Virus record (IMG/VR): IMGVR_UViG_3300021197_000864
Coordinates: 31,572 to 95,571 of that record
Length of the DNA: 64,000 bases
Strand: one strand, 5' to 3'
Origin: a virus
The notes below the pieces were generated by a model. That model made no database searches, was not told the origin of the DNA, and saw only the letters and a list, made by a program, of their open reading frames with translations. The position numbers and the translations under genes were made by a program. This document shows, piece by piece, positions 3,627-49,300 of the stretch (its first letter is position 1; every line of letters begins with the position of its first letter).

Positions 3627-4270
3627 CTCATTTCATCTGCTAACTTGCTAAGTTCCTCATCAATAAACTCTGATTGTTTACCATCCACATGAAATAAAGT
3701 TTGAACATTACTACCTTCATTTAGTTTATAATCAGACCATTCAGACCAAAATAACTGTAAACCTACCCACAAAACAATGATACCGATATCGTTCCTAATT
3801 TCAATGTCTTGTTGAATACCCGAGGTATTTCTTAGTTTAACTGCCATTATTCGATAGCCCGTTCCACCAACATTGTCCTCATCTTTGTATTTAAAATTAG
3901 CACCACTTAACATATCCAACAGTCTACAAAATACTTCTTCAGGTATGCTATTGAAGTCACCTTCTTTAGATATAGATGCTTCTCTCTTAACTACATTAAC
4001 AGAAGCGTGAAGTTTTGCATTTAATTTTTTACCACCATAAGTAATTTCATTTCCATAATATGTGGTTTCTTTTTTAACCTTGACAAACTCTTGGCCTATT
4101 TCATTAGGGAATTGAAAATTCTCAGTAAAATTAGCAATTTCCATAATTTTATCTTTACATCTAGTATCTTCTTCGTTCGGCTTTGGAGTATTGAACGGTT
4201 TAACTTTGAACTTAGGTAAATTAACCAATTTGTTCTGTTTTATAACATTCCACCAATTACTCACGGCCAA
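3614..4270 (-). CDS. Hypothetical protein, paralogue 1 of tandem family
   Basis: WWNVIK..VNLPKFKVKPF, CKDK, IPEEVFCRLLD. Confidence 0.8.
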   Translation of the reverse strand: MAVSNWWNVIKQNKLVNLPKFKVKPFNTPKPNEEDTRCKDKIMEIANFTENFQFPNEIGQEFVKVKKETTYYGNEITYGGKKLNAKLHASVNVVKREASISKEGDFNSIPEEVFCRLLDMLSGANFKYKDEDNVGGTGYRIMAVKLRNTSGIQQDIEIRNDIGIIVLWVGLQLFWSEWSDYKLNEGSNVQTLFHVDGKQSEFIDEELSKLADEMRWPI

Positions 4271-4488
4271 ATCTCCCTACAAAATCAATTACCCAAATCG
4301 CCCAGTTAGGCAATATGTGAATGAAGGCGGCAGGTATCATACTTTAGCCTCTTCTATCCGGTTTAAAATGTTAACCCCGTAATTTGTCGAAAAATGGGCG
4401 GTCATTTTTTTACCACTTGCGATTTTTTTTATTTTTAAAACAATGCATTCCCGATATAAGATTGTACAGTTAGCACATTTTATAGTTC

Positions 4489-4537
4489 CTACAAATACCA
4501 CAATTAGAATTTTGTTGCTACAAATACCACAATTAGA
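4489..4537. repeat. 20-bp direct repeat CTACAAATACCACAATTAGA x2 (29-bp period)
   Basis: Exact copies at 4489-4508 and 4518-4537 in a non-coding AT-rich region. Confidence 0.9.
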
Positions 4538-4721
4538 TTATGTCTGTATCTTTATGCAAGAGCGTTTTTTTATTCTATTATATTTATATTCCCTTCTATT
4601 TAATTAAATATAGTGCCTTTTGTACTAAATAAGATAAAATTAATCACAGTAAAAAAATCTTTTTGATTGTTTTATAAAAAAAAATTTGAACCCTGCTACG
4701 CACCCATACCCCAATTACTAC

Positions 4722-4769
4722 CCATATGGTACGGTATAAAAAACGTACAACCATATGGTATGCGCTTTG
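4722..4769. promoter_or_regulatory. Paired CCATATGG / ACCATATGGT palindromes followed by CTTTG
   Basis: CCATATGG at 4722-4729; ACCATATGGT at 4750-4759 followed by atgcgCTTTG; the same module recurs at 7108, 7830, 7880 and 8555. Confidence 0.65.
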
Positions 4770-5233
4770 CCGCAGACCTCATAAAAATAAAGAAAAATCG
4801 GGTTAAGAGGTTAAACACACTTAATGAGAAGATAGTTTACCTACTGCCATGGTCTAGAGGTTTCTATCTTAACTAGTAAATGTTTTTGTTTAACATTAAC
4901 CGTCTTTTCTTGGGCTGGTACTTGTACCGTTTTTAACTTACAGACCTTTGAATTTATAATAAGGCGGAACTGCTTTCATATCCTATTGTCCCTAAAGCAC
5001 TCATGCATTAGTGGTTTACCTTTCGGTTAGGAACTCATAAACGTGGTTCAGTTTTAAGGAGTATCACCTCTTTGATACTCACACCTTATTCTTAATCTCT
5101 CTACTCTACCTAACTTCAGTGGCTTGAACAGGGTTGCGTACCTATTAACAAACATTAGGCTTGAATCCACAAACAATCTAATCTAACCGTAAGCCGATTA
5201 AATCCCTCATGTATAATCAAGAGAACTCGAATC

Positions 5234-5425
5234 TTATATTCCACCTGCTGACTGATTACGATAAATTGTAATAGCCTTTCTAAACTTAGCAGGTTTAAAA
5301 TTCTTATTTGTTTTTGTTAGTTTTTCAATTATGATATCTACCTTATCAGGTGGTACATCTATTTCAACAATCATACATACTAACCATTCAAAATGTTTCT
5401 TTGTGAATAATGAATACATACTCAT
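5234..5425 (-). CDS. Small hypothetical protein
   Basis: 63-aa ORF, last gene of the leftward small-gene run. Confidence 0.6.
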   Translation of the reverse strand: MSMYSLFTKKHFEWLVCMIVEIDVPPDKVDIIIEKLTKTNKNFKPAKFRKAITIYRNQSAGGI

Positions 5426-5607
5426 TGTATTCGCCTCTCACCTAAATAGAAAGCCCCTCTATTTGGTACTACCAAATAGATTACTTGCCATATTTTTCCA
5501 CCAATAACAACATAACCCAATGAGTTGTATTCATATCTATTCCTACTCATAAAACTATAATCTCTCATTTTAGTATTCCTCCGTATAAAAATCAAACCAC
5601 ATACCAC
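5422..5607 (-). CDS. Small hypothetical protein (likely start MRDYS)
   Basis: ORF overlapping its neighbours by a few bases; GGAGG RBS precedes the internal ATG. Confidence 0.5.
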   Translation of the reverse strand: MVCGLIFIRRNTKMRDYSFMSRNRYEYNSLGYVVIGGKIWQVIYLVVPNRGAFYLGERRIQ

Positions 5608-5740
5608 GCTTACTCAAATCTGAACAAGTTGAACCACTTGTTTCAGGGTCTTGACAATGTGATTGTGCTTCTTCAAGAGTTAGTCCTGTTTTAATTGTTT
5701 TATTATTTCCTTCAAAGTAACTCCTTACTACTTTATACAT
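5570..5740 (-). CDS. Small protein (MYKVVRSYF...TGLTLEEAQSHCQDPETS...WFDFY)
   Basis: Manual translation, 56 aa; resembles a small phage protein motif I recall (TGLTLEEAQxHC), unverified. Confidence 0.6.
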   Translation of the reverse strand: MYKVVRSYFEGNNKTIKTGLTLEEAQSHCQDPETSGSTCSDLSKRGMWFDFYTEEY

Positions 5741-5907
5741 TATATCACATCCAAAGGTAGATTAACACCACAATTCTCATTTATACATATATACCAAACT
5801 GTTGACATTGGTTTTCTAGTGAACATATTAATATCACTTCTTTTGTATGTGCAATCATTTTCAATTGCTGAACCACATTCACCACATTTCATACTATATT
5901 CTAACAT
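5740..5907 (-). CDS. Small zinc-finger-like protein (CGEC...CINENC)
   Basis: Manual translation, 55 aa; GAGGAGG RBS; TAATG coupling to the next gene. Confidence 0.6.
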   Translation of the reverse strand: MLEYSMKCGECGSAIENDCTYKRSDINMFTRKPMSTVWYICINENCGVNLPLDVI

Positions 5908-6078
5908 ACTTATTCCTCCTCATCATAAGGTTCATCTAAATATTCATGGTCATATGAAGTCATACTATCAGGATAAGGCATTATTCCTCACCCCTTTGTA
6001 ATGATAGTGTAACTTCTTCGCCACATTTACGACAATATAATTTATTTGCTGATATTATTTTACCACATATACATTCAT

Positions 6079-6855
6079 TCATTCTTCATCACCATGTTTT
6101 AATCTTGCTTCTCTAGTTAATGCTACAATATCAGGACTACATTCTGTCTTTGATTCTGTAACATGCTCAAAATAACATTCTAGTTCAGGTTCTTGTGAAA
6201 AGTTAATTTCTTCATCTGCAACATCTCTAAAACATTGTTGGAAAGCACTTTCAAATATATGTTGAATTAAACCAACATCAGAAATAATATTATCAACCAT
6301 TCTTTCTTTAATAGTAGCGGCTTTCTTTACTCTTGCAGATTCCCAACTAATATTAAATGTTAATATTAGACCATCACTTGAATTTGTAAGTTTAGAAACT
6401 AAAACAACTTTTTCATCATCAGGAATAGAATATTGAAGAAAATGTCCTTTAATATAATTATGATTAGAATTACCTACAAACTTAGATAATTCCTCAGTAG
6501 CCATATTTGTAAAATTAATTTGATTACCTTTTGGTTCATGCCAAAGTGTATTGATAACCTCTTCAGTAGTAGTATTTAACTCAACATTTTCCCATCCATT
6601 ATCTTTCATATTTTCAACTATACCAGCAGATATATATTGATATGGTGAAGTAAACATTATTCTACCATCAACTACACATTCAGATACAACAGTTGATTTT
6701 ATTTTATCATATTTACCAACGGGAGATGTTTCATACATATTAGATACATTAATACCCCAATCATCTAATGCGTGTAATAACTCATAATAATGATAATCTT
6801 TCAGTTTCGTGTTTGCATATTTCATGTTCATTGTTCTTTTGTATGTTATACTCAT
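6079..6855 (-). CDS. Hypothetical protein
   Basis: 258-aa ORF abutting 6856-7050. Confidence 0.75.
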   Translation of the reverse strand: MSITYKRTMNMKYANTKLKDYHYYELLHALDDWGINVSNMYETSPVGKYDKIKSTVVSECVVDGRIMFTSPYQYISAGIVENMKDNGWENVELNTTTEEVINTLWHEPKGNQINFTNMATEELSKFVGNSNHNYIKGHFLQYSIPDDEKVVLVSKLTNSSDGLILTFNISWESARVKKAATIKERMVDNIISDVGLIQHIFESAFQQCFRDVADEEINFSQEPELECYFEHVTESKTECSPDIVALTREARLKHGDEE

Positions 6856-7050
6856 TTATTTCAACTCCATTGTTTGAAAGGCTTTCAACCCTGCTGATAA
6901 TTCAGAAAAACATTCTGCGAAATCATCACCTTGTACAGTCAATTCCTTAATGACTAGTATTTGGGCTGAACCTGATTTCATATGTCCTACTGATAACTTA
7001 TATCTGTAAGGTTTTGTTTCTTGTATTGTATTATTAGTTGTTTGCGTCAT
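6856..7050 (-). CDS. Small hypothetical protein, first gene of the leftward early operon
   Basis: 64-aa ORF directly downstream of the promoter module at 7077-7117. Confidence 0.7.
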   Translation of the reverse strand: MTQTTNNTIQETKPYRYKLSVGHMKSGSAQILVIKELTVQGDDFAECFSELSAGLKAFQTMELK

Positions 7051-7076
7051 AATTTATCACTTTATACATCAGTCAT

Positions 7077-7117
7077 AGGGTATTTAACTGGTAGCAGTCA
7101 AAGCACTACCATATGGT
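7077..7117 (-). promoter_or_regulatory. Promoter module ACCATATGGT-N4-CTTTG-N10-GTTAAATACCCT
   Basis: Same layout as the modules at 7799-7839 and 7880-7920; archaeal TATA-like box ~30 nt before the ATG. Confidence 0.7.
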
Positions 7118-7144
7118 TGTAATATTTGCTTTGCGGTATTATAA

Positions 7145-7175
7145 CCTTAAAAAGGGCATTTCTGCCCAATTAAGG
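7145..7175 (-). terminator. Hairpin downstream of 7206-7727
   Basis: CCTTAA..GGGCA / TGCCC..TTAAGG inverted repeat. Confidence 0.5.
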
Positions 7176-7205
7176 TGTTAAGTAGGGTTGAAACTACCTA
7201 ACTAT

Positions 7206-7727
7206 TTATTCTTCCTCCTGAGAAGAAGCATTTACCAAAACAACGGGTGATTCCCCGTTCCAAAGGTAAGGCGCGTTATCTGTATTTTTGGTAAAATCTG
7301 AATATGCTTTATTCATCATTTGTCTACGGCTTGCGGTATTTGCATCAGCAAACTCAGTTGCATCAGTATAATTTCCGCCACCGGATTTACCGTGTCTCAT
7401 TTCTAGTGTGCGTATTGATTCGTTTTCATTGAAAAGTACAACCATTGCAGCATGATAAGCGGATAAAACCGCATCTCTTGCAATAAGTACAGCATCAGGC
7501 ATAGTTGAACCTCTACCTGACCTAAATGGCTTGTCTGCGATATCTGCGAAACATGTTCTGATAGCCCCATAGAGAGCATCTCTAGACTCAGGTTTCTTAT
7601 CAGCAGCAGCGATTAATTGCGGTACTGCAATTAACTCGATATTCTGTTGCCAATCAGGATGGCTTTCAAACCATGCCTCAATTAGTGTTTTCTTACTTTC
7701 CCATTGTTCATTTGTCATATCTGTCAT
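7206..7727 (-). CDS. Hypothetical protein, paralogue A of divergent pair (start MTDMT at 7727)
   Basis: ORF track 7206-7775; RBS supports ATG 7727; shares QLIA..D.KPE, P(F/W)R.G.G, HGKS and SSQEEE with 7980-8453. Confidence 0.8.
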   Translation of the reverse strand: MTDMTNEQWESKKTLIEAWFESHPDWQQNIELIAVPQLIAAADKKPESRDALYGAIRTCFADIADKPFRSGRGSTMPDAVLIARDAVLSAYHAAMVVLFNENESIRTLEMRHGKSGGGNYTDATEFADANTASRRQMMNKAYSDFTKNTDNAPYLWNGESPVVLVNASSQEEE

Positions 7728-7798
7728 AATAATTCCTCTTTTTATCTCCTTAGTTAAGTATCTATTCAACCCCACTTAACATAATATACAGTGGATAT

Positions 7799-7839
7799 AG
7801 GGTACTTAAGGGTGTTCTCAAAGTACCACACCATATGGT
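7799..7839 (-). promoter_or_regulatory. Promoter module ACCATATGGT-N6-CTTTG-N8-CTTAAGTACCCT
   Basis: Repeated module upstream of paralogue A. Confidence 0.7.
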
Positions 7840-7879
7840 TGTAATACATAATATTTCATTATACATTTAAATAAATACT

Positions 7880-7920
7880 ACCATATGGTTCTACTTTGAT
7901 AGAACCCTTTAATAAGCCCT
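7880..7920 (+). promoter_or_regulatory. Promoter module ACCATATGGT-N4-CTTTG-N9-TTTAATAAGCCCT
   Basis: Repeated module upstream of paralogue B. Confidence 0.7.
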
Positions 7921-7979
7921 ACATCGGCTATTATTATGCTCACAAAGGCAATCAGTTAATGATAATAAAGGTGTTAAAA

Positions 7980-8453
7980 ATGGAAACATGGGAAGATACA
8001 AAAAAGAAAGTAGAAACAATGATAGCGGCAGATGATAGAGGTTCACTCGATGAAGGTCTAAAAGTTGTAGCCGTACAATTAATTGCAACAGGAGATAGTA
8101 AACCTGAGATGCAAGAACAAATGACTAAGACTCTAAAAGAGGCTCTTAGAGGATGTCATGGATATCCTTGGAGAAGAGGTGGTGGAGGTATTCTTTCTGC
8201 TGCTGCTCTAAGTACAGTGGATGCAATAGTAGCAGATGTTGAAACAGCATTTGCAAATGCATTCGATTCTTGTATCGGTGTTCAAGCATTACTATTGCCT
8301 CACGGTAAGAGTAAGAATACTCATTTTGAAAATGGTGCAGATTATGCAAGCACACTCACAAAGACAATTCGTAAAAATGCAACTACGCTTTACAAAGCAG
8401 GTTGGGATGGTTCTCTAGATGGTCTAGGGATTTCTTCACAGGAGGAAGAATAA
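7980..8453 (+). CDS. Hypothetical protein, paralogue B of divergent pair (start METWE at 7980)
   Basis: ORF track 7896-8453; AGGTG RBS before ATG 7980; alignable by eye to paralogue A. Confidence 0.8.
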   Translation: METWEDTKKKVETMIAADDRGSLDEGLKVVAVQLIATGDSKPEMQEQMTKTLKEALRGCHGYPWRRGGGGILSAAALSTVDAIVADVETAFANAFDSCIGVQALLLPHGKSKNTHFENGADYASTLTKTIRKNATTLYKAGWDGSLDGLGISSQEEE

Positions 8454-8482
8454 AACGGATTGACTCTTTGTGAGTACTAATT

Positions 8483-8526
8483 GGGGGAATAGGGCTTTAA
8501 TGCCTTATTCCTCCTTTTTTTATTTT
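8483..8526 (+). terminator. Hairpin plus T-tract terminator
   Basis: GGGGGAATAGGGC-loop-GCCTTATTCCTCC followed by TTTTTTT. Confidence 0.75.
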
Positions 8527-8541
8527 AAGGTCTTAAACTGA

Positions 8542-8623
8542 CAAAGCGTTTAATACCATATGGTTGTGTATTGTTTTAAAATAGAGGCTGCCGAAACCCT
8601 TGACGGCATCCTTTATATACCCT
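8542..8623 (+). promoter_or_regulatory. ACCATATGGT palindrome (8555-8564) and CCTTG-N8-CTTTATATACCCT promoter
   Basis: Same sub-motifs as the other modules; no ORF for ~500 bp downstream. Confidence 0.6.
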
Positions 8624-8699
8624 CCTAGCCGACTTGATTTGTAGGAACTGACCAAACATCATTCGTGTACAAGAATAACCTAATTAATACTTAAAGCAG

Positions 8700-9135
8700 T
8701 ATTATTCAAAGGATAAATATTTTACCACCAATATGACATCAGTTATTATTACTAATGATTAAAGAATCATTATTAATACAATATGTATTATTTGATAAAA
8801 ATATCAGTATCTAGTATCCTATATAATATAAGATAACTAAATAATATCTTACTCATTTTGATTAACATTCTTCCTTTTCACTTAAGTGGAAACGAGAGGT
8901 AGAACAAAATGAATAAGATATACAATATATGTATATCATTATAATATACATTATCATTTACTACATTTACATACATACATACATACTTTTTTTCTCTCTC
9001 TCTTTATTTATTTCTCTCTCTATGAAAAACAGTGGAAACGAGAGAAACGAATAAAGTAGAGCAAAGTGGTAAACATATACTAACATATGTATATCATTGT
9101 GTCATTTCCAACAAGTGTAAACGAGTGGAAACAAG
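8700..9135. other. Putative replication origin: AT-rich tract plus AGTGGAAAC ORB-like repeats
   Basis: AGTGGAAACGAGAG at 8885 and 9031, AGTGGAAAC at 9124, variants at 9065 and 9114; ATATGTATATCATT at 8927 and 9085; near the coding-strand switch. Confidence 0.5.
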
Positions 9136-9155
9136 AATAGCATTAAAAAAATAAC

Positions 9156-9584
9156 GTGATTAACATGGATAAAGAAATTAAAAGAACAAATGAAGAAGAT
9201 AACAAAGAAAGGAAGATAACAATGTTTAGTGGAAAGAGTGATGTCAAATATACACCTCCACAAACAATGCAACAACCTTACACAAGAAAACCTCTTGAAG
9301 GTGTAGCACTATTAATACATGAGAAGTGTAATGATATCAAAGGAATGCTTATTGAAAAGAATGAGCAGTATGGAGATTCAGCATTGAATCCAATTAGAAT
9401 ATTTTCAACATCTAATACAGATGAACAACTGCGAGTTAGGATAGATGATAAGTTAAGTCGTTTATCTCGCGGTAATGATTCATTAGAATCAGATGATGAT
9501 ATAATTAATGACCTAATAGGTTACTTAGTTTTATTATCAATACATAAAGACACTCACCCCATAAGTGGAGAAGTTGTGGAATAG
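9156..9584 (+). CDS. DUF1599 / nucleotide-modification-associated domain protein
   Basis: KNEQYGDSA...VRIDDKLSRL...DLIGY motif pattern. Confidence 0.7.
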   Translation: MINMDKEIKRTNEEDNKERKITMFSGKSDVKYTPPQTMQQPYTRKPLEGVALLIHEKCNDIKGMLIEKNEQYGDSALNPIRIFSTSNTDEQLRVRIDDKLSRLSRGNDSLESDDDIINDLIGYLVLLSIHKDTHPISGEVVE

Positions 9585-32017: not shown

Positions 32018-33721
32018 ATGATAATTAGTGAAACAACAGAAGGAATATACACAGCATGGAGGGATGATACGGGTAAAAGAGAATCCTGTATCACCCCCCA
32101 CATGGTTTTTAGACCATATTTCTATATTTTAGCAAGTGATTCTAAACCTGAGAATATTATTAGTAGAGATAAATGGGGCAATAGTAGAGTATTAACTGTA
32201 TCTTATGAAGAAAATAGAGCATATAAAAGTCTACAAAACCTACCTTTAACTAGAGTTTACTGTAAAAACCCTCAAGAGATGAGGAAGGTAAAGGATGAGT
32301 TTGCTACTACTTTTGAAGCAGACGTAAGATATACACATAGATATGCTGTTGATGTATTTTACAAGACTAATAGTGAAACGATACGTTTCTTTGGTGAAAA
32401 AGGATTTCCTGAATATGATTTAAGAAAGTGTTATTGGGACATGGAATGGATGCAAGGTGGAGAACATGATGGTAAGATTACTTGTATAGTTATGTATGAT
32501 AATTTTGAAAAGAAGTTTCATAGATATAGTTGGTTTCCTACGAAAAGAAACTTAAGTGAAAATACTGTAAGAGAAGATACAGAAGAGTTTGTCTTTGATA
32601 ATGAGAAAGCAATGATACTTTATTTCCTAACAGTGATAAATAAACAAGACCCTGATATGTTAATATCTTGGTTTGGAAACAGATTCGATTTACCTAAGTT
32701 ATTAGAAAGATGTGCCGCACTTAATCTAGACGCTAGGTTATTATCACCTGTTTGGGAAGTTGATGGGTTCAAGAATAATAAAAATAGTTATTCGTTTAAT
32801 AGAGATTTTTTTGGTCCTATTGAACAACCAATTAAAGGAAGAATAACATTGAGTTTAGATGTAGCGTTTGAGAGACAATGGAATGATGCTCAACGCGGTA
32901 CTCTTCCTTCACTATCATTAGATTATGTATCGAATCTAGTTCTAGGTTCTAAGAAATTAGTTAGTGAAAAGTTTCCTGATAAACAGGAGTTTTTCAGAAG
33001 AGGATGGTTAGAGGATTCTGATACCTATTTGCAGTATGCCTTAATAGATGTAGAACTAATTAAAGAATTAGACGAAACAAACTATTTGTCAGAAGCGGTA
33101 TTGTCATTACAGCGTTTAATTAAAGCCCCATTTGATGCTTGTTTTTATGCAAGTAATATGGGTGCAATATATTTCATGCGTAATGCTTGGTGGAAAGCAC
33201 CATCATCAACTGATGGAGTCAAGATTAACTACGAAGGTGCAATGATATATGACCCGTTGAAAGAAGGTACTAATGGTTTACATCAAGGTGTAGCAGCATT
33301 TGATTATGCACAACTATATCCATCAATGATGATAGCACGTAATATATCTTGGGAAACTAAATCAGATGTTCCAACAGAATTTGCTGTAAACATTTCTACT
33401 CCTAGAGATTTCTCACCTGCTAAAACTAAAACAATGTTATATTACAAGACTGATGAATTAGGAATATTACCTAAATCAGTTTTAGAATTAAAAGCATTGA
33501 GAGATGAGTACAAAAAGAAAATGAAAGAAGCGACAACTAAAGATGATAAGGTTAAATGGAATAACAATCAGTTAGCAGTAAAGCGATTGATGGCGAGTTT
33601 CTATGGTATCATCGGGTATCAGGGTTTTGGTTGGTCTGATGTAGATATAGCCGCTAGTATTACTGCTAGTGCAAGGCAAGCAATTAGATTTGCTGCATTA
33701 AAAGTGGAGGGATTAGAATAG
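32018..33721 (+). CDS. polB: Family B DNA polymerase, N-terminal part (3'-5' exonuclease plus motifs A and B)
   Basis: WDMEW (ExoI), GNRFDLP (ExoII), YALID (ExoIII), FDYAQLYPS (A), KRLMASFYG (B). Confidence 0.93.
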   Translation: MIISETTEGIYTAWRDDTGKRESCITPHMVFRPYFYILASDSKPENIISRDKWGNSRVLTVSYEENRAYKSLQNLPLTRVYCKNPQEMRKVKDEFATTFEADVRYTHRYAVDVFYKTNSETIRFFGEKGFPEYDLRKCYWDMEWMQGGEHDGKITCIVMYDNFEKKFHRYSWFPTKRNLSENTVREDTEEFVFDNEKAMILYFLTVINKQDPDMLISWFGNRFDLPKLLERCAALNLDARLLSPVWEVDGFKNNKNSYSFNRDFFGPIEQPIKGRITLSLDVAFERQWNDAQRGTLPSLSLDYVSNLVLGSKKLVSEKFPDKQEFFRRGWLEDSDTYLQYALIDVELIKELDETNYLSEAVLSLQRLIKAPFDACFYASNMGAIYFMRNAWWKAPSSTDGVKINYEGAMIYDPLKEGTNGLHQGVAAFDYAQLYPSMMIARNISWETKSDVPTEFAVNISTPRDFSPAKTKTMLYYKTDELGILPKSVLELKALRDEYKKKMKEATTKDDKVKWNNNQLAVKRLMASFYGIIGYQGFGWSDVDIAASITASARQAIRFAALKVEGLE

Positions 33722-33931: not shown

Positions 33932-34029
33932 TAATTATGAAAGATAAAATGTTAATAAGAATGATATATGTAATAGGTAAAATATCTACACTGATAAGTA
34001 GATTTAATAGTAGTAGGTGGAGAAAATGA
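33928..34029 (+). CDS. 33-aa microprotein coupled to the PolB C-terminal gene
   Basis: ATGA overlaps at both ends. Confidence 0.4.
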   Translation: MIIMKDKMLIRMIYVIGKISTLISRFNSSRWRK

Positions 34030-34931
34030 AAGTGGTTTACGGTCATACTGATTCTATTTATGTTAAGTGTGAAAGTATTGAGAAAGGAGAAGAGATTTGT
34101 GCTATGTTGAATGAGTCTGTAAGAGAATACTTCCCTAATGTTTTAGGGTTAAAAGAACATCCTGTAACACTAGAGTTTGAAAAGTATTTTGAAACACTAG
34201 GAGTCGGTGCAACAAAGAACAGAAATGCAGGAATGATTTCTTGGAAAGATGGTGATTTCTTAGATAGTAAAGAGTTTGTTATGACAGGTTTTACCGCTAA
34301 AAGAATATCAGAAACGGCACTTGCTAAAGAGGTACAAATAAAGGTTTTGAAAATGTGGGTAATGAACAACTCAGAAGAAGAAATACTAGATTATTTAGTA
34401 TCTATTTATCAAGATACTTTACAAGGTAGATTAACACTTGATAAAATATTAAAGCGTAGTAGATATAAAGAAGAAAGATTTCATGTTTATTGTACTGTAT
34501 GTAAGAAATCATATCATTTAGATGATGCTAAATGTAACTGTGTTCTTACTAATAAGAAATCTGCACTAACTACTGCTAGAAAAAGTGGCAAAGGTTGGGC
34601 TTCGGCAGGAAAAAGACCTACTGTTGGTGCAGGTATATTGGGTGTACTAATGTACAATAAAACTAACACTACACCAATAGAAGATACTTACTTGTATCTT
34701 AAAATGAAAGACTATCCATCTATGATTAATCACCCAATAACAGGGAACTCATTTGTTCCTAATTATATGGCGGGATTAACAGAAGAGGATTTTAAAACAA
34801 TTACACCTGATTGGGAACATTATGCTCAATCAGTTGTTAAAAAAGCAAGCCCAATATTTGATGCTATGGATTGGGATACATCTAAAATAACAAAAGATGT
34901 ACATCAAAGAACACTAGATGAATGGTGGTAA
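34017..34931 (+). CDS. polB: Family B DNA polymerase, C-terminal part (motif C, thumb, PIP box)
   Basis: YGHTDSI, LEFEK and KNRNAG motifs; C-terminal QRTLDEWW PIP box; likely start ATG 34026. Confidence 0.92.
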   Translation: MEKMKVVYGHTDSIYVKCESIEKGEEICAMLNESVREYFPNVLGLKEHPVTLEFEKYFETLGVGATKNRNAGMISWKDGDFLDSKEFVMTGFTAKRISETALAKEVQIKVLKMWVMNNSEEEILDYLVSIYQDTLQGRLTLDKILKRSRYKEERFHVYCTVCKKSYHLDDAKCNCVLTNKKSALTTARKSGKGWASAGKRPTVGAGILGVLMYNKTNTTPIEDTYLYLKMKDYPSMINHPITGNSFVPNYMAGLTEEDFKTITPDWEHYAQSVVKKASPIFDAMDWDTSKITKDVHQRTLDEWW

Positions 34932-43308: not shown

Positions 43309-46300
43309 TCAACCTACCATAATCCAATTATTAGCAGTAACACAAATAAACGATGCTAACTCATGGTCTGCTATTGCTGCATTTGTAAAGCCTGAAATCA
43401 TAGAACAATTAGTGCTATTAAGCGCAATAGAAGCCTGACTACCTTTGTTATTAATTACAGTATATTGAGTTCCTACTGTTCCGCTTGCAGGTAAAGTTAA
43501 TGTCCCACCTGTCCAATAAACGTATGAACCTGATTGTGCTATTGTTAATGTTGTATTACTTGATGCCGCTACAACATTTGCTCTACTTGTCATTTGACCG
43601 GGAATTGCTACTTCACCACTACTACCTATGGTTAATCTCGCTGTTCCACCTGTTGAGAATCCAAAATTGTTGTCACCGATTCGATACATTCCTGTATCAG
43701 TATCGCCATTGAAAGTGTAGTAAGGAGCGGCTTCCGTTCCACTCAAAGCCATAAACTTACCCGAACCACCACCGATATAGAAATTGGTAGCAGTAAAACC
43801 AACATCACCATGCACTTGTAATTTATTACCGTATGATGCACCACCGATAGCAACATTACCGCTTCCGTTTATTTTGAAAGGTGTTGAATCAACATTTGAT
43901 GAATCTTCGACAATAAAAGCATCTCCTGAACCTGTTTGTGTAATTCTTAGTAGTTGTTGGTCTGATGATGCACTAATAACAAACTTTTCAGATGATGAAG
44001 TGTTATCATAAGTAAATGACGCTATTCCATCTTCTGTACCACCATTGTTATACAATAATTCAGTATCACTACCGCCAACTGTGCCGCCTGATGGTGTCTC
44101 CCAAGCAACTCCTGAACCTGTTGAAGTTAGAACTTGACCGTCAGAACCATATGAGTTTCCAATCTTCAATTTTGAATCAACTAAATCAACAGCACCATCT
44201 GAGTATATTTTTAGTCTTGGACTTCCACCTGTTCCTAAGAATATAGCATTCGTATCTTCTCTACCCATGCCGCAATCGTTGTCGTCAATAAATGTGAAAG
44301 ACGGAGATGTATAACTGCCCCCACCAAGAGATATATTTGCTGCTACTGATGCAGTTGAATCAACAGTAAGATTATCAGTTTTTACTGTTCCATCAAAGTA
44401 TGCGTTTTTAAACTGACTACTACCTGTTCCTAAATCTATATCATCATCAGTAACAGGTTCTATTACACCATCTTTAATGAATAATTGAGCAGTTCCATCT
44501 ATTGTAAATCCTATTTGATTTTCTGCATATCGGTATATTCCTGTATTATCATCACCTGCTAATGATAATCCGGGTGCAGTATTAGAACCTGCGATAATCT
44601 CAAATCTTTTATTTGCTTCAACCTTAGAGGATTGCATATACATAGCATTAGAACCACCAACTGAGAATGCTAAAGTATCACTTGTTAATCTATACATTCC
44701 TGTATTAGTATCAGAAGCAAATGAAAATGTAGGTGCGCTTGCTGAACCATTAACACCACCTGCGTTTGTATCGCCACTACTAACAGTAGTGAAACTTAAA
44801 TTTCCACTTCCATCAGTTTGAATGACTTGATTTGCAGAACCATCTGATTGAGGTAAATAATAGAGGCCGTTAATTTGTACCTTACTTGTTGAATCTCGAC
44901 CAAGAACTACTTTACTATTAGCATCATCACCATTGTTAATGTAAATACTTCCCGATGTGGAATCGTTTATCTGAATATATGGCTCAGTCCAACCTGCATT
45001 TGTATTGGTAGTTAGAACCAAATCTTGTGAACCGTTTGAAGATATCTTGGCCGTAGCAGACCCCGTTCCAAATAGAGTTGTAACACTACCCAATGTTTTG
45101 TTAGTGAGGGTTTGAGTACCTGTTAATGTAGCAACTGTTGAATCAATGTTCAATGTTGCACTACCACTTGTAGCCCCACCACTAAGCCCTGTACCTGCAA
45201 CTACTGCTGTTATATCTCCTGAACCTGAACCAAAGTTTTGTGCTGCTATATAATCATAAACTGCATCACCATCAACTAAACCTGTATTACCATTTCCTAC
45301 TGTTCCTGAATCAGCCCATGCTCCATCACCACGAAGATAAGTTGCTGTTTTACCTGCGGGGATTGAAGGTACTAAACCTGCTTTACCTATTGAAGAAGCA
45401 CCTGCACCTTCAAATCTTGGAATGAATATATCTTTTGAACCGCCTACTGTAACCTTAACTCCTTCAGGGGCTTTAATAGTAGTATTATCACTATGGCCTA
45501 CCGCAGTTGTACCTGCATGGCCTCTTACTGTTCCGGTTGTTTGCCCGTTACCGTCAATACCTGTATAATAGACTAATTCATTACCTATTTCTAATAATCC
45601 TCTAGTTGGAAAACCTGTTGCGTCATCTAATTTAATATGGTCTGTTGTGCCTAAATCTGCATCATCTAAACTAGTTGCCGCTATTTGAGAATAAGCCGTT
45701 GTAAAGGCACTAACTTTATCACCTGTTACTGCACTATCTGCTAATTCTGCTGTATCAATAGCATTAGCACCTACCTTATCATTAGTAACTGCACCTGTTC
45801 CTAATCTTGCTTCTGTAATAGCACCTGTACCTATTCTTGATGCAGGTAAAGTTCCTGCTGTTAATTTTTCAGCATTGATTCCTGTTGCTAATTTATCATT
45901 AGCAATAGAACCTGCTAACTTATCTTGTGAAATTGAACCTGCTAATTGTGCATTAGTTATTGTACCTACCAAATTGCTAGTAGTATATCCGGTAGCATTA
46001 GTTAATGTTCCACTTGCAGGAGTTCCTAATACGGGTGCAACTAAAACCATACCACTAGCCATTGTTCCTTGAGAAACTTGTGCAGCAGGTAATGCTGTTG
46101 CGTTTGTTAATACTAAAGCAGAAGGTGTTCCTAATGCGGGTGTAGTAAGAGTAGGACTTGTTAATGTTTTATTGGTTAGAGTTTGTTCTTCTGTTAACTG
46201 AACAATGTTGCTGTTTGTTATAGAAGCAATCTTAGTAGAAGTATCAGCATTACCTGTTAAATCTCCAACAACACTACCACCAAAACTTGTTGCAGTAAAT

Positions 46301-49300
46301 CTTCCTGTACTTGGATTGTAATTAAGTCCTGTATCAGTTTCAACTCCTTGAGTGCCAGTGGCACCATCAACGAATGTTAAATATACAGTTTCATTAGCAG
46401 TATTGTTAGCACTAACAGTTACATTTGTTGCTTCAGTAGAAGTAGATGCATTACCAACAAAACTAGTAGCCTGTAAAGGTACGTTAACTGCTAACCTTGT
46501 ATTACTATGGTCATAAGTTAAAGTTGGTATAGTTCCTGATGACCATCCTGAACCAAATGTTAAACCTGCTCCATTTGTTGCGGCTGATGAACTAGCATCC
46601 TTAGCAACTGTAATGTTTAAATCTGTTACTTCTAATGTAGCAACATCTAATGTTGTAGCAGTACCACTAACTAATAAATCTCCTGTTACAGTTAAGTCTC
46701 CTGAAATAGTAGTATCTACTGTACTAGCACTACCAATAGTGACGTTAGAATCTATGTCTACTAACCTATCTATAAGATTAGCAACATTTACATCTACGTC
46801 TGAATTACTAGTAAATGTTAATGAACTTTGCATATAAGTGGCTAAATTAGCCATTGTTGCTTTTCTATTAGTACCATCTGCACCATCATCAACAATCATT
46901 AAATCTGTATTAACTAAGTTATTGTTAAGAGCAGTTGCACCATCTATATTCAATGCAGTTAATGCAACCTTATCAGCAGTAGAAATTGTAGAAAGTTTAG
47001 AATCAGCAATAGAACCTGCTAACATAGCATTACTAACTTGAACTTCTGATATTACACCTGCTGATGTTGCACCTAATACTCTATTATTTGTTGTAGTATG
47101 TTGTAATTTTGCATAAGTTACTGCATCGTCAGCAATCATAGCAGTTGCAACTTGAACTTCTGATACTGCTCCATCTGCACTTGAACTTCCTAATACTCTA
47201 TTTGCAGTAGCAATATTTTGCATTTTAGCATATGTTACTGCATCAGCAGCAATTGTTGTAGCACCATCACCACTTGAAGTTACATCACCTGAATGGTTTG
47301 GATGACTATAAACTGTATCTGTATCAGGCAAAGTAATAGCCATTACATATGGGTCGCTTGTTGTTCCACTACCTGATAAATTAGTCCCTGCTGTTCCTGT
47401 TGCCGCAGTAAACTTGATGAACTCATTTTCAGTAATGATTAGGTCATCATTATCATCATCTCTAATTTTGAATCCATCACCCATATCTACCGTATTAGTA
47501 AATGAAGTAATATAACCATAATCCTCAATCTTCTCTCTAATAGCACCTGCTGTCATTAAAGAAGTATCATTGTCTGCAAATCCAGTACCCGTATGAATAG
47601 TAGTAATACCGACCGTTCCTGTTGAAGCATCGTCAAAAGTCCATGTTCCTGTTGTTGTAAAACCTGCGGCAGTTATTGTTCCTGTTGTAGTATCATTAGC
47701 ATCATTCTTCAAGAATGCATCATCAACACTAAACTCTGTTCCACTTAATGTTAAGTTAGTTCCTGCTGTGTATTCGGTGTTAGTATTAGTATCAGTAGAA
47801 GAAATAGTTACAACACCATCTACTTCTGCTAAAGTAATATTACTACCTTTCTTTAATCTTAATGCCTCAGTCGAAGTTAGAGTATTATTAACAGAACCAT
47901 CACCATTTGTATCTAACTCTATTGTTCTAAATGTATTAGTGTTGGCTACATCGTTAGTAATAGTTAATGTTCCATCAGCACTTGTATCAGTTGAAATTCC
48001 TGTACCACCTGCAATAGTTAATGTTTCACCTTCAACAATAGTGGTTGCATTTGAATTAGAATCTCCTACTACAATGAATCCATCACCCATATTTATGGTA
48101 TCAGTATTAGTATCAGTAGAGGATATTGTTAATTCAGTAGCACTTGTTCTTGTTACTGTAACATTAGTTCCACCTGTTATAGTGATGTCATCATTACTTC
48201 CACTAGAAGGGTCTAATCTTAAAACGGGATTATTGTTATTACCCCCTGTTTGTTCTAAGGTTAAATCATAAGTTGTGTTAGTATCGGTATTTGTTACTGT
48301 ATTAGCAATTGTAATTACTCCATCAGAAGTAGATGTAGTAGTTATTCCTGTACCTGCTGCAATAGTAATAGTATCATTATGACCAACAGTAGTAGGTGCA
48401 GTGTTAGTTGTACCTCTTAATGTGAATGTAGTTAACTGATTAGTGTTAGTATCAGTATTTGCTAAGTTTGTTAATATTGAAGCACTATTAAAATAAGTTG
48501 TTAAATTATCAATAGTCATTTCTCTCAAAGCAGATTCAGATGTATCGTGTATTATTAGTGAATCACCTGAAGCAACATTGTTTCCTAAATCAGTAGCACC
48601 TGTTATATCACCTGTTGCAAAGTTAGAAGCACCTGCCGCACTAGCACCAATAGCCGTTCTAAAGTCTGCATCACTTAATGCTGAAACGGTATTATCCGCA
48701 TTCAATCTTGGAAATGTAATTGCACTAGGGTTAGTTAATGTGAATAAATTAGCACCAACAGTAGTAGCACCTAATCCTGTTCTAGCACCACTAACGGTAG
48801 TAGAACCTGTACCTCCACTTGATATTGCTAGAGTAGAAGATAAACCACCCGCAGTTCCCGTAGTATTTTCATTTTGTAATGCTAAAGTACCTTGTGTATT
48901 AGGTAATGTAATTGTAATATCATTATTAGACCCACTTGGATTACCACCTACTAATGTTGTCTCACTATTATCAGCAGTAGAACCTTCAAAGACTACACCA
49001 TTACTTGTTGATACAGTTTCTACATTATTTGTAGTTACTGTGCCTGTTACTGTTAAATCACCCGGAATTGAAACTGCTGTATTACCGTCACCAATAGTAA
49101 GAGCATTACTTGGCATTGCCGCATTAAGAGCAGAATGAACATTTGTCGTATCTGTTACATCAGCAGATGTTTCTATGCCATCTAGTTTATCGAACATTTC
49201 ATCAGACATAACACCCCAATTATCTGTATCTGCTAAAGGTAGTTCTGCATTAGTACCATCAGAAGATACAACGTGTAATTTAGTTCCATCTCTACTTACA

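What the first reader, a model, noticed from the sequence alone, without database searches (positions are those of the whole stretch)
7176..8476. Early genes whose 5' and 3' UTRs base-pair (stem-closed mRNAs)
Seen: paralogue A is bracketed by a 16/17 inverted repeat (7176-7192 vs 7765-7781) extended by a further 10-bp arm (7195-7204 vs 7751-7760); the mismatches become G-U pairs on the coding strand. Paralogue B is bracketed by TGCTCACAAAG-GCAATC (7937-7953) and GATTG-ACT-CTTTGTGAGTA (8458-8476). The two stems differ in sequence, so pairing rather than sequence is conserved between paralogues, and both 5' arms begin about where the TATA boxes predict the TSS. Inference: the ORF is looped out by a terminal duplex for stability, processing or circularisation. 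I found no canonical bulge-helix-bulge motif.
Basis: partly seen in the sequence, partly recalled or inferred. Interest (0 to 1): 0.8.

Follow-up and report, generated by a model that had tools for sequence, protein, structure and literature searches.

The report
Archaeal-virus mRNAs that pair their ends
Two neighbouring early genes of a marine virus, probably one that infects archaea, have matching sequences just before and just after each gene; these sequences co-evolve across many related viruses, so each messenger RNA most likely closes on itself by pairing its first bases with its 3' untranslated region.

Summary
Gene A (7206-7727, -) and its paralogue B (7980-8453, +) are each bracketed by complementary arms.

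- **Position.** The 5' arm starts at the predicted first transcribed base, 22 nt after a TATA-like box. The 3' arm starts 0-4 nt after the stop codon and ends before a hairpin and oligo-T.
- **Chance.** A 17-bp repeat alone is not rare genome-wide (0.76 expected per strand). Position and conservation make the case.
- **Conservation.** Arm sequences differ between virus lineages (three classes for A, two for B, six in other family genes), yet each 5' arm fits its own 3' arm. Two relatives with 91% identical coding sequence show four fully compensated changes in one 14-bp helix.
- **Strand.** Mismatches favour G-U on the mRNA strand (43 vs 24).
- **Excluded.** No bulge-helix-bulge motif, no viral RNase III or RtcB, no inverted copy in about 34 loci.

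A split family-B polymerase marks the virus as a probable group B magrovirus of Marine Group II archaea.

Best reading: an RNA duplex closes the mRNA and leaves the ribosome-binding site free, probably for end protection. Function and transcript ends are untested. This scan has noted end-paired mRNAs before in bacteria and phages. I found no description of this architecture for an archaeal virus.

The parts
7206..7727 (-). Gene A, 173 aa, family of unknown function
   Evidence: ORF. Paralogue of B. No Pfam or PHROG match. Profile search finds 118 family representatives.
7765..7780 (-). A, 5' arm, outer helix (mRNA GUUAAGUGGGGUUGAA). Predicted +1 is the G at 7780.
   Evidence: The TATA-like box lies 22 nt upstream.
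7751..7760 (-). A, 5' arm, inner helix (UACUUAACUA). Purine-rich SD-like sequences follow directly.
7195..7204 (-). A, 3' arm, inner helix (UAGUUAGGUA), beginning 1 nt after the stop codon
7177..7192 (-). A, 3' arm, outer helix (UUCAACCCUACUUAAC)
7149..7167 (-). A, hairpin plus T5 run (terminator), outside the 3' arm
7803..7810 (-). TATA-like box of A (CTTAAGTA) at -30..-23
   Evidence: Sequence. Conserved in relatives.
7831..7838 (.). CCATATGG palindrome of the A promoter module
7881..7888 (.). CCATATGG palindrome of the B promoter module
7908..7915 (+). TATA-like box of B (TTTAATAA) at -30..-23
7938..7953 (+). B, 5' arm (GCUCACAAAG-G-CAAUC). Predicted +1 is the G at 7938.
7980..8453 (+). Gene B, 157 aa. 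Confident all-alpha model with no informative structural match.
8458..8475 (+). B, 3' arm (GAUUG-ACU-CUUUGUGAGU), 4 nt after the stop codon
8483..8521 (+). B, 13-bp hairpin plus T7 run (terminator), outside the 3' arm
8355..8375 (+). Internal coding copy of the B 5' arm. It competes for the 3' arm in this lineage and has no counterpart in the distant clade.
   Evidence: (D6)

Best explanation
Each of the two genes is a monocistronic early transcription unit of a probable archaeal (Marine Group II) virus. Its mRNA closes on itself. The first 16-30 nt of the transcript, starting at the predicted +1 G, pair with the stretch of 3' UTR between the stop codon and the hairpin/oligo-U terminator. This gives a 15-35 bp interrupted duplex.

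Shown: the complementarity, its placement, its co-evolution, and its presence in thermodynamic folds.

Inferred: the duplex forms in vivo on the mRNA strand. It buries the 5'-triphosphate end and blocks 3'-to-5' decay beyond the 3' arm, so that complete transcripts are stabilised. The ribosome-binding site and start codon stay single-stranded.

The closure also puts the stop codon within about 10-25 nt of the ribosome-binding site across the helix junction, which may help ribosomes re-initiate on the same message.

In A-type genes each arm can also fold as its own hairpin, presenting a 9-11 nt G+C-rich complementary loop. That would nucleate the long-range pairing through a loop-loop kiss.
For: (1) Strength and specificity in the window. 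MFE and centroid of the predicted A transcript both contain the 16+10 bp closing duplex from nt 1, with the SD/AUG region unpaired.

(2) Full-length folds of 12 transcripts from different lineages hold 14-26 5'UTR-3'UTR pairs in 11 of 12. 24 control genes have a mean of 4.5 and a maximum of 14.

(3) Co-evolution without any alignment: cognate 5' and 3' flanks pair at -27 to -49 kcal/mol. Flanks from a different arm class pair at about -14 to -32, mostly within a few kcal/mol of the shuffle means of -12 to -25. There are three arm classes for A and two for B.

(4) Tool count on the gene A alignment: 84.9% of cells paired against 77.9% in shuffles. 26 double-change cells against 11.6. Covariation score 0.225 against 0.141, all 0/500. 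Slid registers give 27-47% paired.

(5) Family genes in other viruses carry different complementary arms: L035/36, L041 (17 bp), L044 (two genes), L045/46 (two genes).

(6) L046 and L045 have 91% identical CDS and show 4 fully compensated double substitutions in one 14-bp helix. L018 against L030 shows 2 more.

(7) Geometry: in most units the arms start 51-58 nt after CCATATGG, i.e. at the TATA-predicted +1 within a few nt; the best ungapped helix lies further downstream (61-65 nt) in a few units and misplaces in three. The 3' arm starts 0-4 nt after the stop in A and B lineages and lies upstream of the hairpin and oligo-T.

(8) Strand asymmetry: 43 G-U against 24 A-C mismatches (p 0.027). Units with G-U in excess number 15 against 4 (p 0.019).

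(9) Local arm hairpins with complementary loops occur in A-type genes.
Against: - No transcript ends are mapped. TSS and terminator are predictions, and the archaeal host is itself inferred.
- Metatranscriptome contigs were too shallow to show ends, and one contig even runs across the A/B promoter region.
- Strand asymmetry is modest and the rows are phylogenetically related. At the level of distinct lineages for gene A alone it is not significant.
- Column-wise covariation for gene B on a MAFFT alignment is no better than shuffles, because the 5' arm is invariant within the near clade and the far clade is out of register.
- B in this window has a competing internal partner (closure probability 0.03).
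- Some family genes lack closure: L037-39 (operonic) and L040. L042/43 are weak.
- MFE folds tend to pair RNA ends anyway: 4 of 24 controls had 10 or more such pairs.
- Nothing tested bears on the proposed function (stability, re-initiation).
Confidence: 0.6

Rival explanations
1. The arms act at the DNA level. They would be two inverted copies of a protein-binding or recombination site that bracket the gene (an operator pair, an invertible segment, or the ends of a small mobile cassette). The two copies would co-evolve because they serve the same protein.
For: Inverted repeats are symmetric, so covariation alone cannot separate DNA from RNA. A-type arms are themselves imperfect palindromes. 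The whole unit is embedded between palindromic CCATATGG/CTTTG modules at both ends. Strand asymmetry is only modest.
Against: - The gene has the same orientation relative to its promoter in all of about 34 loci fetched.
- The locus is syntenic, with promoter and terminator outside the arms.
- The neighbouring ORFs searched (6079-7050 and 9156-9584) have no Pfam match and only a function-unknown PHROG, so none is a recognisable transposase or recombinase.
- Arm sequences differ between the two paralogues and between close relatives, which is hard to reconcile with one DNA-binding protein.
- G-U exceeds A-C on the mRNA strand.
- The arms track the +1 site and the stop codon.
Confidence: 0.1
2. 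The duplex is a processing stem. A host or viral endonuclease cuts within it, as RNase III does at bacterial rRNA stems or the splicing endonuclease does at archaeal BHB motifs. The result would be a trimmed or circularised mRNA.
For: A 25-35 bp helix formed by the 5' and 3' flanks that loops out a functional RNA is the architecture of rRNA processing stems. A conserved internal loop separates the two helices in all A lineages.
Against: - No canonical bulge-helix-bulge motif in any of 18 units.
- The virus encodes no RNase III or RtcB. A sub-threshold RNA-ligase-like hit lies in a distant 850-aa ORF.
- No joints were seen in RNA contigs, though that data set is very weak.
- From general knowledge, most archaea lack RNase III.
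Confidence: 0.12
3. The arms are two independent local hairpins with no long-range pairing: a 5'-terminal stabiliser hairpin and a post-stop hairpin.
For: In gene A both arms fold locally in most lineages: 7-9 bp stems, z -2 to -4.6.
Against: Local hairpins do not explain why the loops are complementary over 9-11 nt and covary (GGGGUUGAA/UUCAACCC becomes GGGGCUGAA/UCAGCCC, then GGGGCUAA/UUAGCCCC). They also do not explain B-type and other units, which lack local hairpins yet keep 5'-3' complementarity.
Confidence: 0.08
4. Chance inverted repeats in A+T-rich intergenic DNA.
For: An ungapped stem scoring like the 17-bp arm is expected 0.76 times per strand per shuffled genome.
Against: Two helices per gene sit at the same places in both paralogues. 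They are retained with changed sequence in at least 10 arm classes across about 30 loci.
Confidence: 0.01

Closest known systems
B. subtilis hbs mRNA 5'/3'-UTR interaction (Braun, Durand, Condon 2017, PMC5737220; abstract read)
   Same: A long-range helix (14 bp in hbs) joins the 5' and 3' UTRs of one short monocistronic mRNA and modulates ribonuclease access and stability.
   Different: hbs is a bacterial host gene, and its helix overlaps an RNase Y site inside a structured leader. Here the helix starts at the predicted first nucleotide, is 15-35 bp long, sits in a probable archaeal virus, and has no experimental support.
S. aureus icaR mRNA 5'-3' UTR pairing (Ruiz de los Mozos et al. 2013, PMC3868564; abstract read)
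   Same: The 3' UTR of an mRNA base-pairs with its own 5' UTR.
   Different: In icaR the pairing masks the Shine-Dalgarno sequence and creates an RNase III substrate. Here the SD and start codon stay unpaired in MFE and centroid, and no viral RNase III is present.
hok-type type I toxin mRNAs: 5'-3' fold-back (tac-fbi) closure (from my own knowledge, not checked in a paper here)
   Same: The full-length mRNA is closed by pairing of its very 5' end with its 3' end. Only complete transcripts adopt the closed form.
   Different: hok encodes a small membrane toxin with an antisense RNA partner, and 3' trimming triggers refolding. Here the product is a soluble 157-173 aa all-alpha protein, and no antisense gene is evident.
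Archaeal rRNA processing stems with bulge-helix-bulge motifs and circular intermediates (for example PMC7038931, PMC10351888; titles and abstracts seen)
   Same: In archaea, the 5' and 3' flanks pair into a long helix that loops out the functional RNA.
   Different: The defining BHB motif is absent in all lineages, and the looped-out RNA is an mRNA.
Functional 5'-/3'-UTR interplay in haloarchaeal translation control (Brenneis and Soppa 2009, PMC2636863)
   Same: An archaeal setting in which both UTRs of one mRNA must act together.
   Different: That paper shows a genetic requirement only. A text search finds no mention of base pairing or complementarity between the UTRs. Here a covarying duplex is seen but no function is shown.

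Membership tests
Intramolecular 5'UTR-3'UTR pairing of a prokaryotic mRNA (hbs / icaR kind) | Complementary segments lie in the 5' and 3' untranslated regions of the same unit | tested here: met
Intramolecular 5'UTR-3'UTR pairing of a prokaryotic mRNA (hbs / icaR kind) | Both segments lie inside the mapped transcript | not testable with these tools
   Only predicted: the TATA-like box at -30..-23 puts +1 on the first arm base, and the oligo-T lies after the 3' arm. RNA contigs were uninformative.
Intramolecular 5'UTR-3'UTR pairing of a prokaryotic mRNA (hbs / icaR kind) | Pairing is supported by compensatory change | tested here: met
   Gene A: (0/500 shuffles). Class switches. L045/L046: 4 double changes. 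Gene B on MAFFT columns is not significant, but it does show compensations in its own register.
icaR-type translational masking | The 3' UTR pairs with the Shine-Dalgarno region | tested here: not met
   SD and AUG are unpaired in MFE and centroid of A. Arms end 17-25 nt before the start codon in most A and B units. Only L044(+) extends onto the SD.
hok-type fold-back closed toxin mRNA | The 5' terminus pairs with the 3' end of the full-length mRNA | tested here: met
   The helix starts at predicted nt 1
hok-type fold-back closed toxin mRNA | A small hydrophobic toxin ORF with an antisense RNA partner | tested here: not met
   Products are 157-173 aa. The model is an all-alpha protein at pLDDT 90.9. 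No Rfam match in the region.
Archaeal BHB processing stem / circular RNA precursor | Bulge(3)-helix(4)-bulge(3) motif within the flank helix | tested here: not met
   0 hits at the arms in 18 units
Archaeal BHB processing stem / circular RNA precursor | 3'-5' junction molecules exist | tested here: inconclusive
   No joints in four RNA runs, but these are low-depth contigs only
RNase III processing stem | dsRNA of about 20 bp or more, and an RNase III available | tested here: inconclusive
   The duplex length is met. The virus has no RNase III. The host enzyme set was not examined.
Invertible DNA segment / inverted-repeat mobile cassette | Both orientations, or variable location, in the population; a recombinase or transposase nearby | tested here: not met
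   Same orientation and synteny in about 34 loci. The neighbouring ORFs searched have no Pfam domain.
Group B magrovirus (host Marine Group II archaea) | Family-B DNA polymerase split within the catalytic domain; archaeal-type replication genes | tested here: met
   PolB is in two ORFs, 32018-33721 and 34017-34931, alongside an RFC-like clamp loader and an ATP-dependent ligase. The nearest isolates by PolB are haloarchaeal tailed viruses. The split is described as unique to group B (PMC5434244). No capsid-protein phylogeny was done.

The most novel reading that the evidence does not exclude
In these archaeal viruses the closing duplex makes a functionally circular mRNA. Because the stop codon and the ribosome-binding site sit on either side of one helix junction, terminating ribosomes would be handed back to the start of the same message. 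This would be an RNA-only analogue of the eukaryotic closed loop in a host related to the archaeal ancestors of eukaryotes. Alternatively, the closed ends could be a 'self' mark that spares viral early mRNAs from a virus-induced mRNA decay programme.
Probability: 0.15. Interest if true: 0.85.

Novelty: new variant of a known kind. Interest (0 to 1): 0.62.

Why it matters
[quoted passage not shown] In archaea, UTR cooperation is known genetically but without a structure.

This locus provides a whole protein family, with 118 representatives at 50% identity clustering. In many lineages its genes carry a covarying terminal duplex that starts at the predicted first nucleotide. The viruses belong to one of the most abundant uncultured archaeal groups of the surface ocean.

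That gives a concrete architecture, already varied by natural mutation, for asking how archaeal mRNA ends are protected and whether termination and initiation can be coupled on one message. It also shows that gene-bracketing inverted repeats in viral genomes should not be read by default as mobile-element ends.

Tried and rejected
- **Sequence matches for the region.** blastn of the region against the phage collection found nothing. tblastn of the 2201-aa protein against the same collection found nothing.
- **Protein function.** Pfam and PHROGs gave nothing for A, B or most neighbours. The AlphaFold model of B is confident (pLDDT 90.9). Foldseek against PDB found nothing at E <= 0.001. BFVD found only an unnamed probable family member. 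VIA-align gave generic three-helix matches with Z < 7. Function remains unknown.
- **Known RNA families.** Rfam gave only sub-threshold miRNA noise.
- **RNA evidence.** Four metatranscriptome runs hold parts of the region as Logan contigs at depth 2-19. Contig ends fall at 7175, 7217, 7723 and 7760-7763, and one contig bridges the A/B promoter region. There are no joints. This is too shallow, and the contigs too fragmentary, to define transcript ends.
- **Failed locus searches.** The search for related loci failed on broad alignments.
- **A general rule in this genome?** No. Only A stood out among 114 ORFs (B was missed because its over-extended ORF start put the arm outside the 5' window). 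The neighbouring unit at 7050-6079 is nearly leaderless.
- **Bacterial-phage reading (sigma-70 -10/-35, RNase III).** Set aside after the split PolB, the archaeal-type replication genes and the TATA spacing. Even under that reading, the -10-like TATATT/TATTAT would start transcription inside the outer helix.
- **Convergent antisense promoter at the 3' end of A.** A TATA-like A-run lies 29 nt from the arm in the window and in L018. The spacing fails for B (52 nt), and the A-run is simply the complement of the terminator's T-run.
- **Column-wise covariation on my own MAFFT flank alignments and on A6.** The distant clade is out of register, so these counts understate the signal.
- **First inverted-repeat scan with 10-nt exact seeds.** It missed the A arms.
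- **One script timed out**.
Full report
**What the window is.** The window is bases 31572-95571 of a 95,571-bp IMG/VR virus record rated complete, with about 33% G+C. It encodes a ribonucleotide reductase, an ATP-dependent DNA ligase, an RFC-like clamp loader, and a family-B DNA polymerase split into two ORFs at 32018-33721 and 34017-34931. The nearest cultured relatives by polymerase are haloarchaeal tailed viruses at about 25% identity. Philosof et al. describe a polymerase split within the catalytic domain as unique among archaeal viruses to group B magroviruses of Marine Group II Euryarchaeota (PMC5434244). Relatives come from marine metagenomes. I therefore treat the host as archaeal, as an inference with roughly 0.8 probability.

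**The observation.** Gene A (7206-7727, minus strand, 173 aa) and gene B (7980-8453, plus strand, 157 aa) are divergently transcribed paralogues with 25% identity, E 1e-14.
- For A, 7176-7192 pairs with 7765-7781 (16/17) and 7195-7204 with 7751-7760 (9/10). Both mismatches are G-U on the mRNA strand.
- For B, 7938-7947 pairs with 8466-8475 and 7949-7953 with 8458-8462.
- Flank-to-flank duplex energies are -40.8 and -35.4 kcal/mol. Shuffles average -17 and -21, and 0/1500 and 2/1500 are as good.
- Each leader's best partner within the 3.5 kb downstream is its own 3' flank.
- Among 114 ORFs of the genome, A ranks first.

Two cautions apply. A 17-bp stem of this quality at this spacing is expected about 0.76 times per strand in a shuffled genome, so the repeat alone proves nothing. 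Also, in this lineage the 3' arm of B pairs equally well with an internal coding copy of the 5' arm at 8355-8375, which the full-length fold prefers.

**Placement relative to expression signals.** Six CCATATGG palindromes occur in the genome, all within 4722-8563. Each promoter module reads CCATATGG, then CTTTG, then a TATA-like box embedded in CCC...CCC, then an A+T-rich proximal element, and then a conserved T-G step. The modules are conserved in relatives.
- Counting from the G of that T-G step, the TATA-like octamer lies at -30..-23 for both genes: 7803-7810 for A and 7908-7915 for B. From general knowledge, this is the canonical archaeal spacing.
- The same G is the first paired base of the 5' arm.
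- In most units the best helix starts 51-58 nt after CCATATGG, at the predicted +1 within a few nt. In a few it starts 61-65 nt after, because the longest ungapped stretch is an inner part of the arm, and in three units the ungapped search misplaced it.
- The 3' arms begin 0-4 nt after the stop codon in the A and B lineages. They end before a hairpin plus T5-T7 run.
- So both arms should lie inside a monocistronic transcript, and the helix should include its very first nucleotide.
- Under a bacterial promoter reading most of the arm would still be transcribed.

**Conservation.** About 22 loci carry the A/B pair in the same arrangement.
- *Alignment-free test.* Pairing each 5' flank with each 3' flank gives block matrices. 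A has three arm classes and B has two. Flanks of the same class pair at -27 to -49 kcal/mol. Flanks of different classes pair at about -14 to -32, mostly within a few kcal/mol of the shuffle means of -12 to -25. The arms are entirely different between classes. For B they are GCUCACAAAGGCAAUC against GCCCCCCAAGACGAUUAGC, each matched by its own 3' arm.
- *Tool count for gene A (15 sequences).* 84.9% of cells are paired against 77.9% in shuffles. There are 26 double-change cells against 11.6. The covariation score is 0.225 against 0.141. All three are 0/500. Slid registers give 27-47% paired. Classic series appear, such as U-A / U-G / C-G and A-U / G-U / G-C.
- *Tool count for gene B.* The same count is no better than shuffles. 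The near clade has an invariant 5' arm, and the far clade is three to five columns out of register. In its own register the far clade shows two double changes, plus pairs gained from mismatches.

**Extension to the protein family.** A profile search finds 118 representatives at 50% clustering. Loci for four distant members could be fetched.
- *Units with their own complementary arms, behind the same promoter module:*
 - L035/36: 10 + 4 bp.
 - L041: 17 bp with one G-U.
 - L044: two genes, one with a perfect 13-bp helix.
 - L045/L046: two genes each.
- *L046 against L045.* The coding sequences are 91% identical. One 14-bp helix carries four fully compensated double substitutions and no uncompensated change in its first 13 pairs. 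The paralogous gene carries one more.
- *Exceptions.* L037-39, where the gene lies in an operon without the promoter module, L040, and the weak L042/43.
- Closure is therefore a frequent property of this family's monocistronic units, not an obligatory one.

**RNA or DNA?** Covariation cannot tell the two apart, so I used four other lines.
1. Among aligned arm mismatches, G-U on the mRNA strand outnumbers A-C by 43 to 24 (p 0.027). It is in excess in 15 units against 4 (p 0.019). The rows are related and the effect is modest. For gene A alone, counted by distinct lineages, it is not significant.
2. The arms track translation and transcription landmarks: the +1 site, the stop codon and the terminator.
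3. The gene has the same orientation relative to its promoter in every locus. The neighbouring ORFs that were searched (6079-7050 and 9156-9584) have no Pfam match and only a function-unknown PHROG, so none is a recognisable recombinase or transposase.
4. The two paralogues, and even close relatives, use different arm sequences. That fits pairing but not recognition by one DNA-binding protein.

Thermodynamic folds agree. MFE and centroid of the predicted A transcript contain the 16+10 bp duplex from nt 1. The closing helix is in the MFE of 11 of 12 transcripts from different lineages. 24 control genes average 4.5 end-to-end pairs with a maximum of 14.

**What the structure does and does not do.**
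- The ribosome-binding region and start codon stay unpaired in the closed form. Arms end 17-25 nt before the start codon in most A and B units. An icaR-like masking of the Shine-Dalgarno sequence is therefore not supported.
- No bulge-helix-bulge motif occurs at the arms in any of 18 units. The virus encodes no RNase III or RtcB. RNA contigs show no joints, although that data set is too thin to count. Processing or circularisation therefore has no positive support.
- In A-type genes each arm also folds as a local hairpin whose 9-11 nt G+C-rich loop is complementary to the loop of the other arm. This suggests loop-loop nucleation followed by extension into the full duplex.
- My preferred mechanism is end protection of complete transcripts, and it is inferred. 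The 5'-triphosphate end is buried, and 3'-to-5' decay is stopped at the 3' arm. A possible side effect is that the stop codon and ribosome-binding site are brought together.

**Comparison with known systems.**
- The nearest documented cases are bacterial. In hbs a 14-bp 5'/3'-UTR helix modulates RNase access (PMC5737220). In icaR the 3' UTR pairs with the SD region and creates an RNase III substrate (PMC3868564).
- From my own knowledge, hok-type toxin mRNAs are closed by 5'-3' fold-back pairing.
- In archaea, flank helices are known for rRNA precursors with BHB motifs. A functional 5'/3'-UTR interplay was shown genetically in haloarchaea, in a paper whose text never mentions base pairing or complementarity (PMC2636863).
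- Earlier notes of this scan report end-paired mRNAs in Patescibacteria cassettes and in phages. The architecture is therefore not unique to this genome.
- I found no description of it for an archaeal virus or for this protein family.
- I class it as a new variant of a known kind.

**Limits.** Everything here is computational. Host, transcription start and terminator are predictions. The function of the proteins is unknown: the model is a confident all-alpha fold with no informative structural match. No experiment bears on the proposed role.

Noticed in passing
window 7205-7227 and 8432-8454: The last seven codons plus the stop of A and B (protein ...SSQEEE*) are 22/23 identical at the nucleotide level, although the proteins share only 25% identity. 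The stretch contains AGGAGG and can form a small hairpin (UUCUUC...GAAGAA) just before the stop and the 3' arm. This could reflect gene conversion or a functional RNA element. The L012 lineage keeps it in both genes.
   Followed up: partly
window 4722-8563 (CCATATGG at 4722, 4751, 7109, 7831, 7881, 8556): All six CCATATGG palindromes of the 95-kb genome cluster here. Each is flanked by CAAAG/CTTTG and TATA-like boxes, and they stand at both ends of the A and B units. The same module precedes family genes in distant viruses (L035, L040, L041, L044-46). It is probably the operator/promoter of an early regulon.
   Followed up: partly
window 4270-4830: About 550 nt without a credible ORF, next to two CCATATGG sites. 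It holds a 19-nt direct repeat, CTAATTGTGGTATTTGTAG, at 4536-4518 and 4507-4489 (minus strand, period 29), and long A/T runs. It is a candidate origin or regulatory region.
   Followed up: no
window 8570-9155: An ORF-free stretch of about 0.6 kb, partly very A+T-rich, lies downstream of a promoter module with a good TATA box (CCTTTATATACCC near 8615). It could be a non-coding early transcript or a long leader of the gene at 9156-9584.
   Followed up: no
window 8355-8375: An internal coding copy (81% identical) of the B 5' arm can capture the 3' arm. In this lineage the predicted B mRNA is not closed in the MFE fold. The distant clade has no such copy.
   Followed up: yes
window 32018-33721 and 34017-34931: The family-B DNA polymerase is split into two ORFs separated by about 300 nt. 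This is the published signature of group B magroviruses.
   Followed up: partly
window 43309-54471 and 54816-61421: Two giant ORFs (3720 and 2201 aa) have no PHROG match. The 2201-aa protein also has no tblastn match in the phage collection. The 3720-aa gene is internally repetitive and holds many of the genome's best inverted repeats.
   Followed up: no
genome C1:14925-15218 (outside the window; locus L047): A sub-threshold RNA-ligase-like (PF09414) hit, E 6.9e-5, lies in an 850-aa ORF of the structural arm.
   Followed up: no
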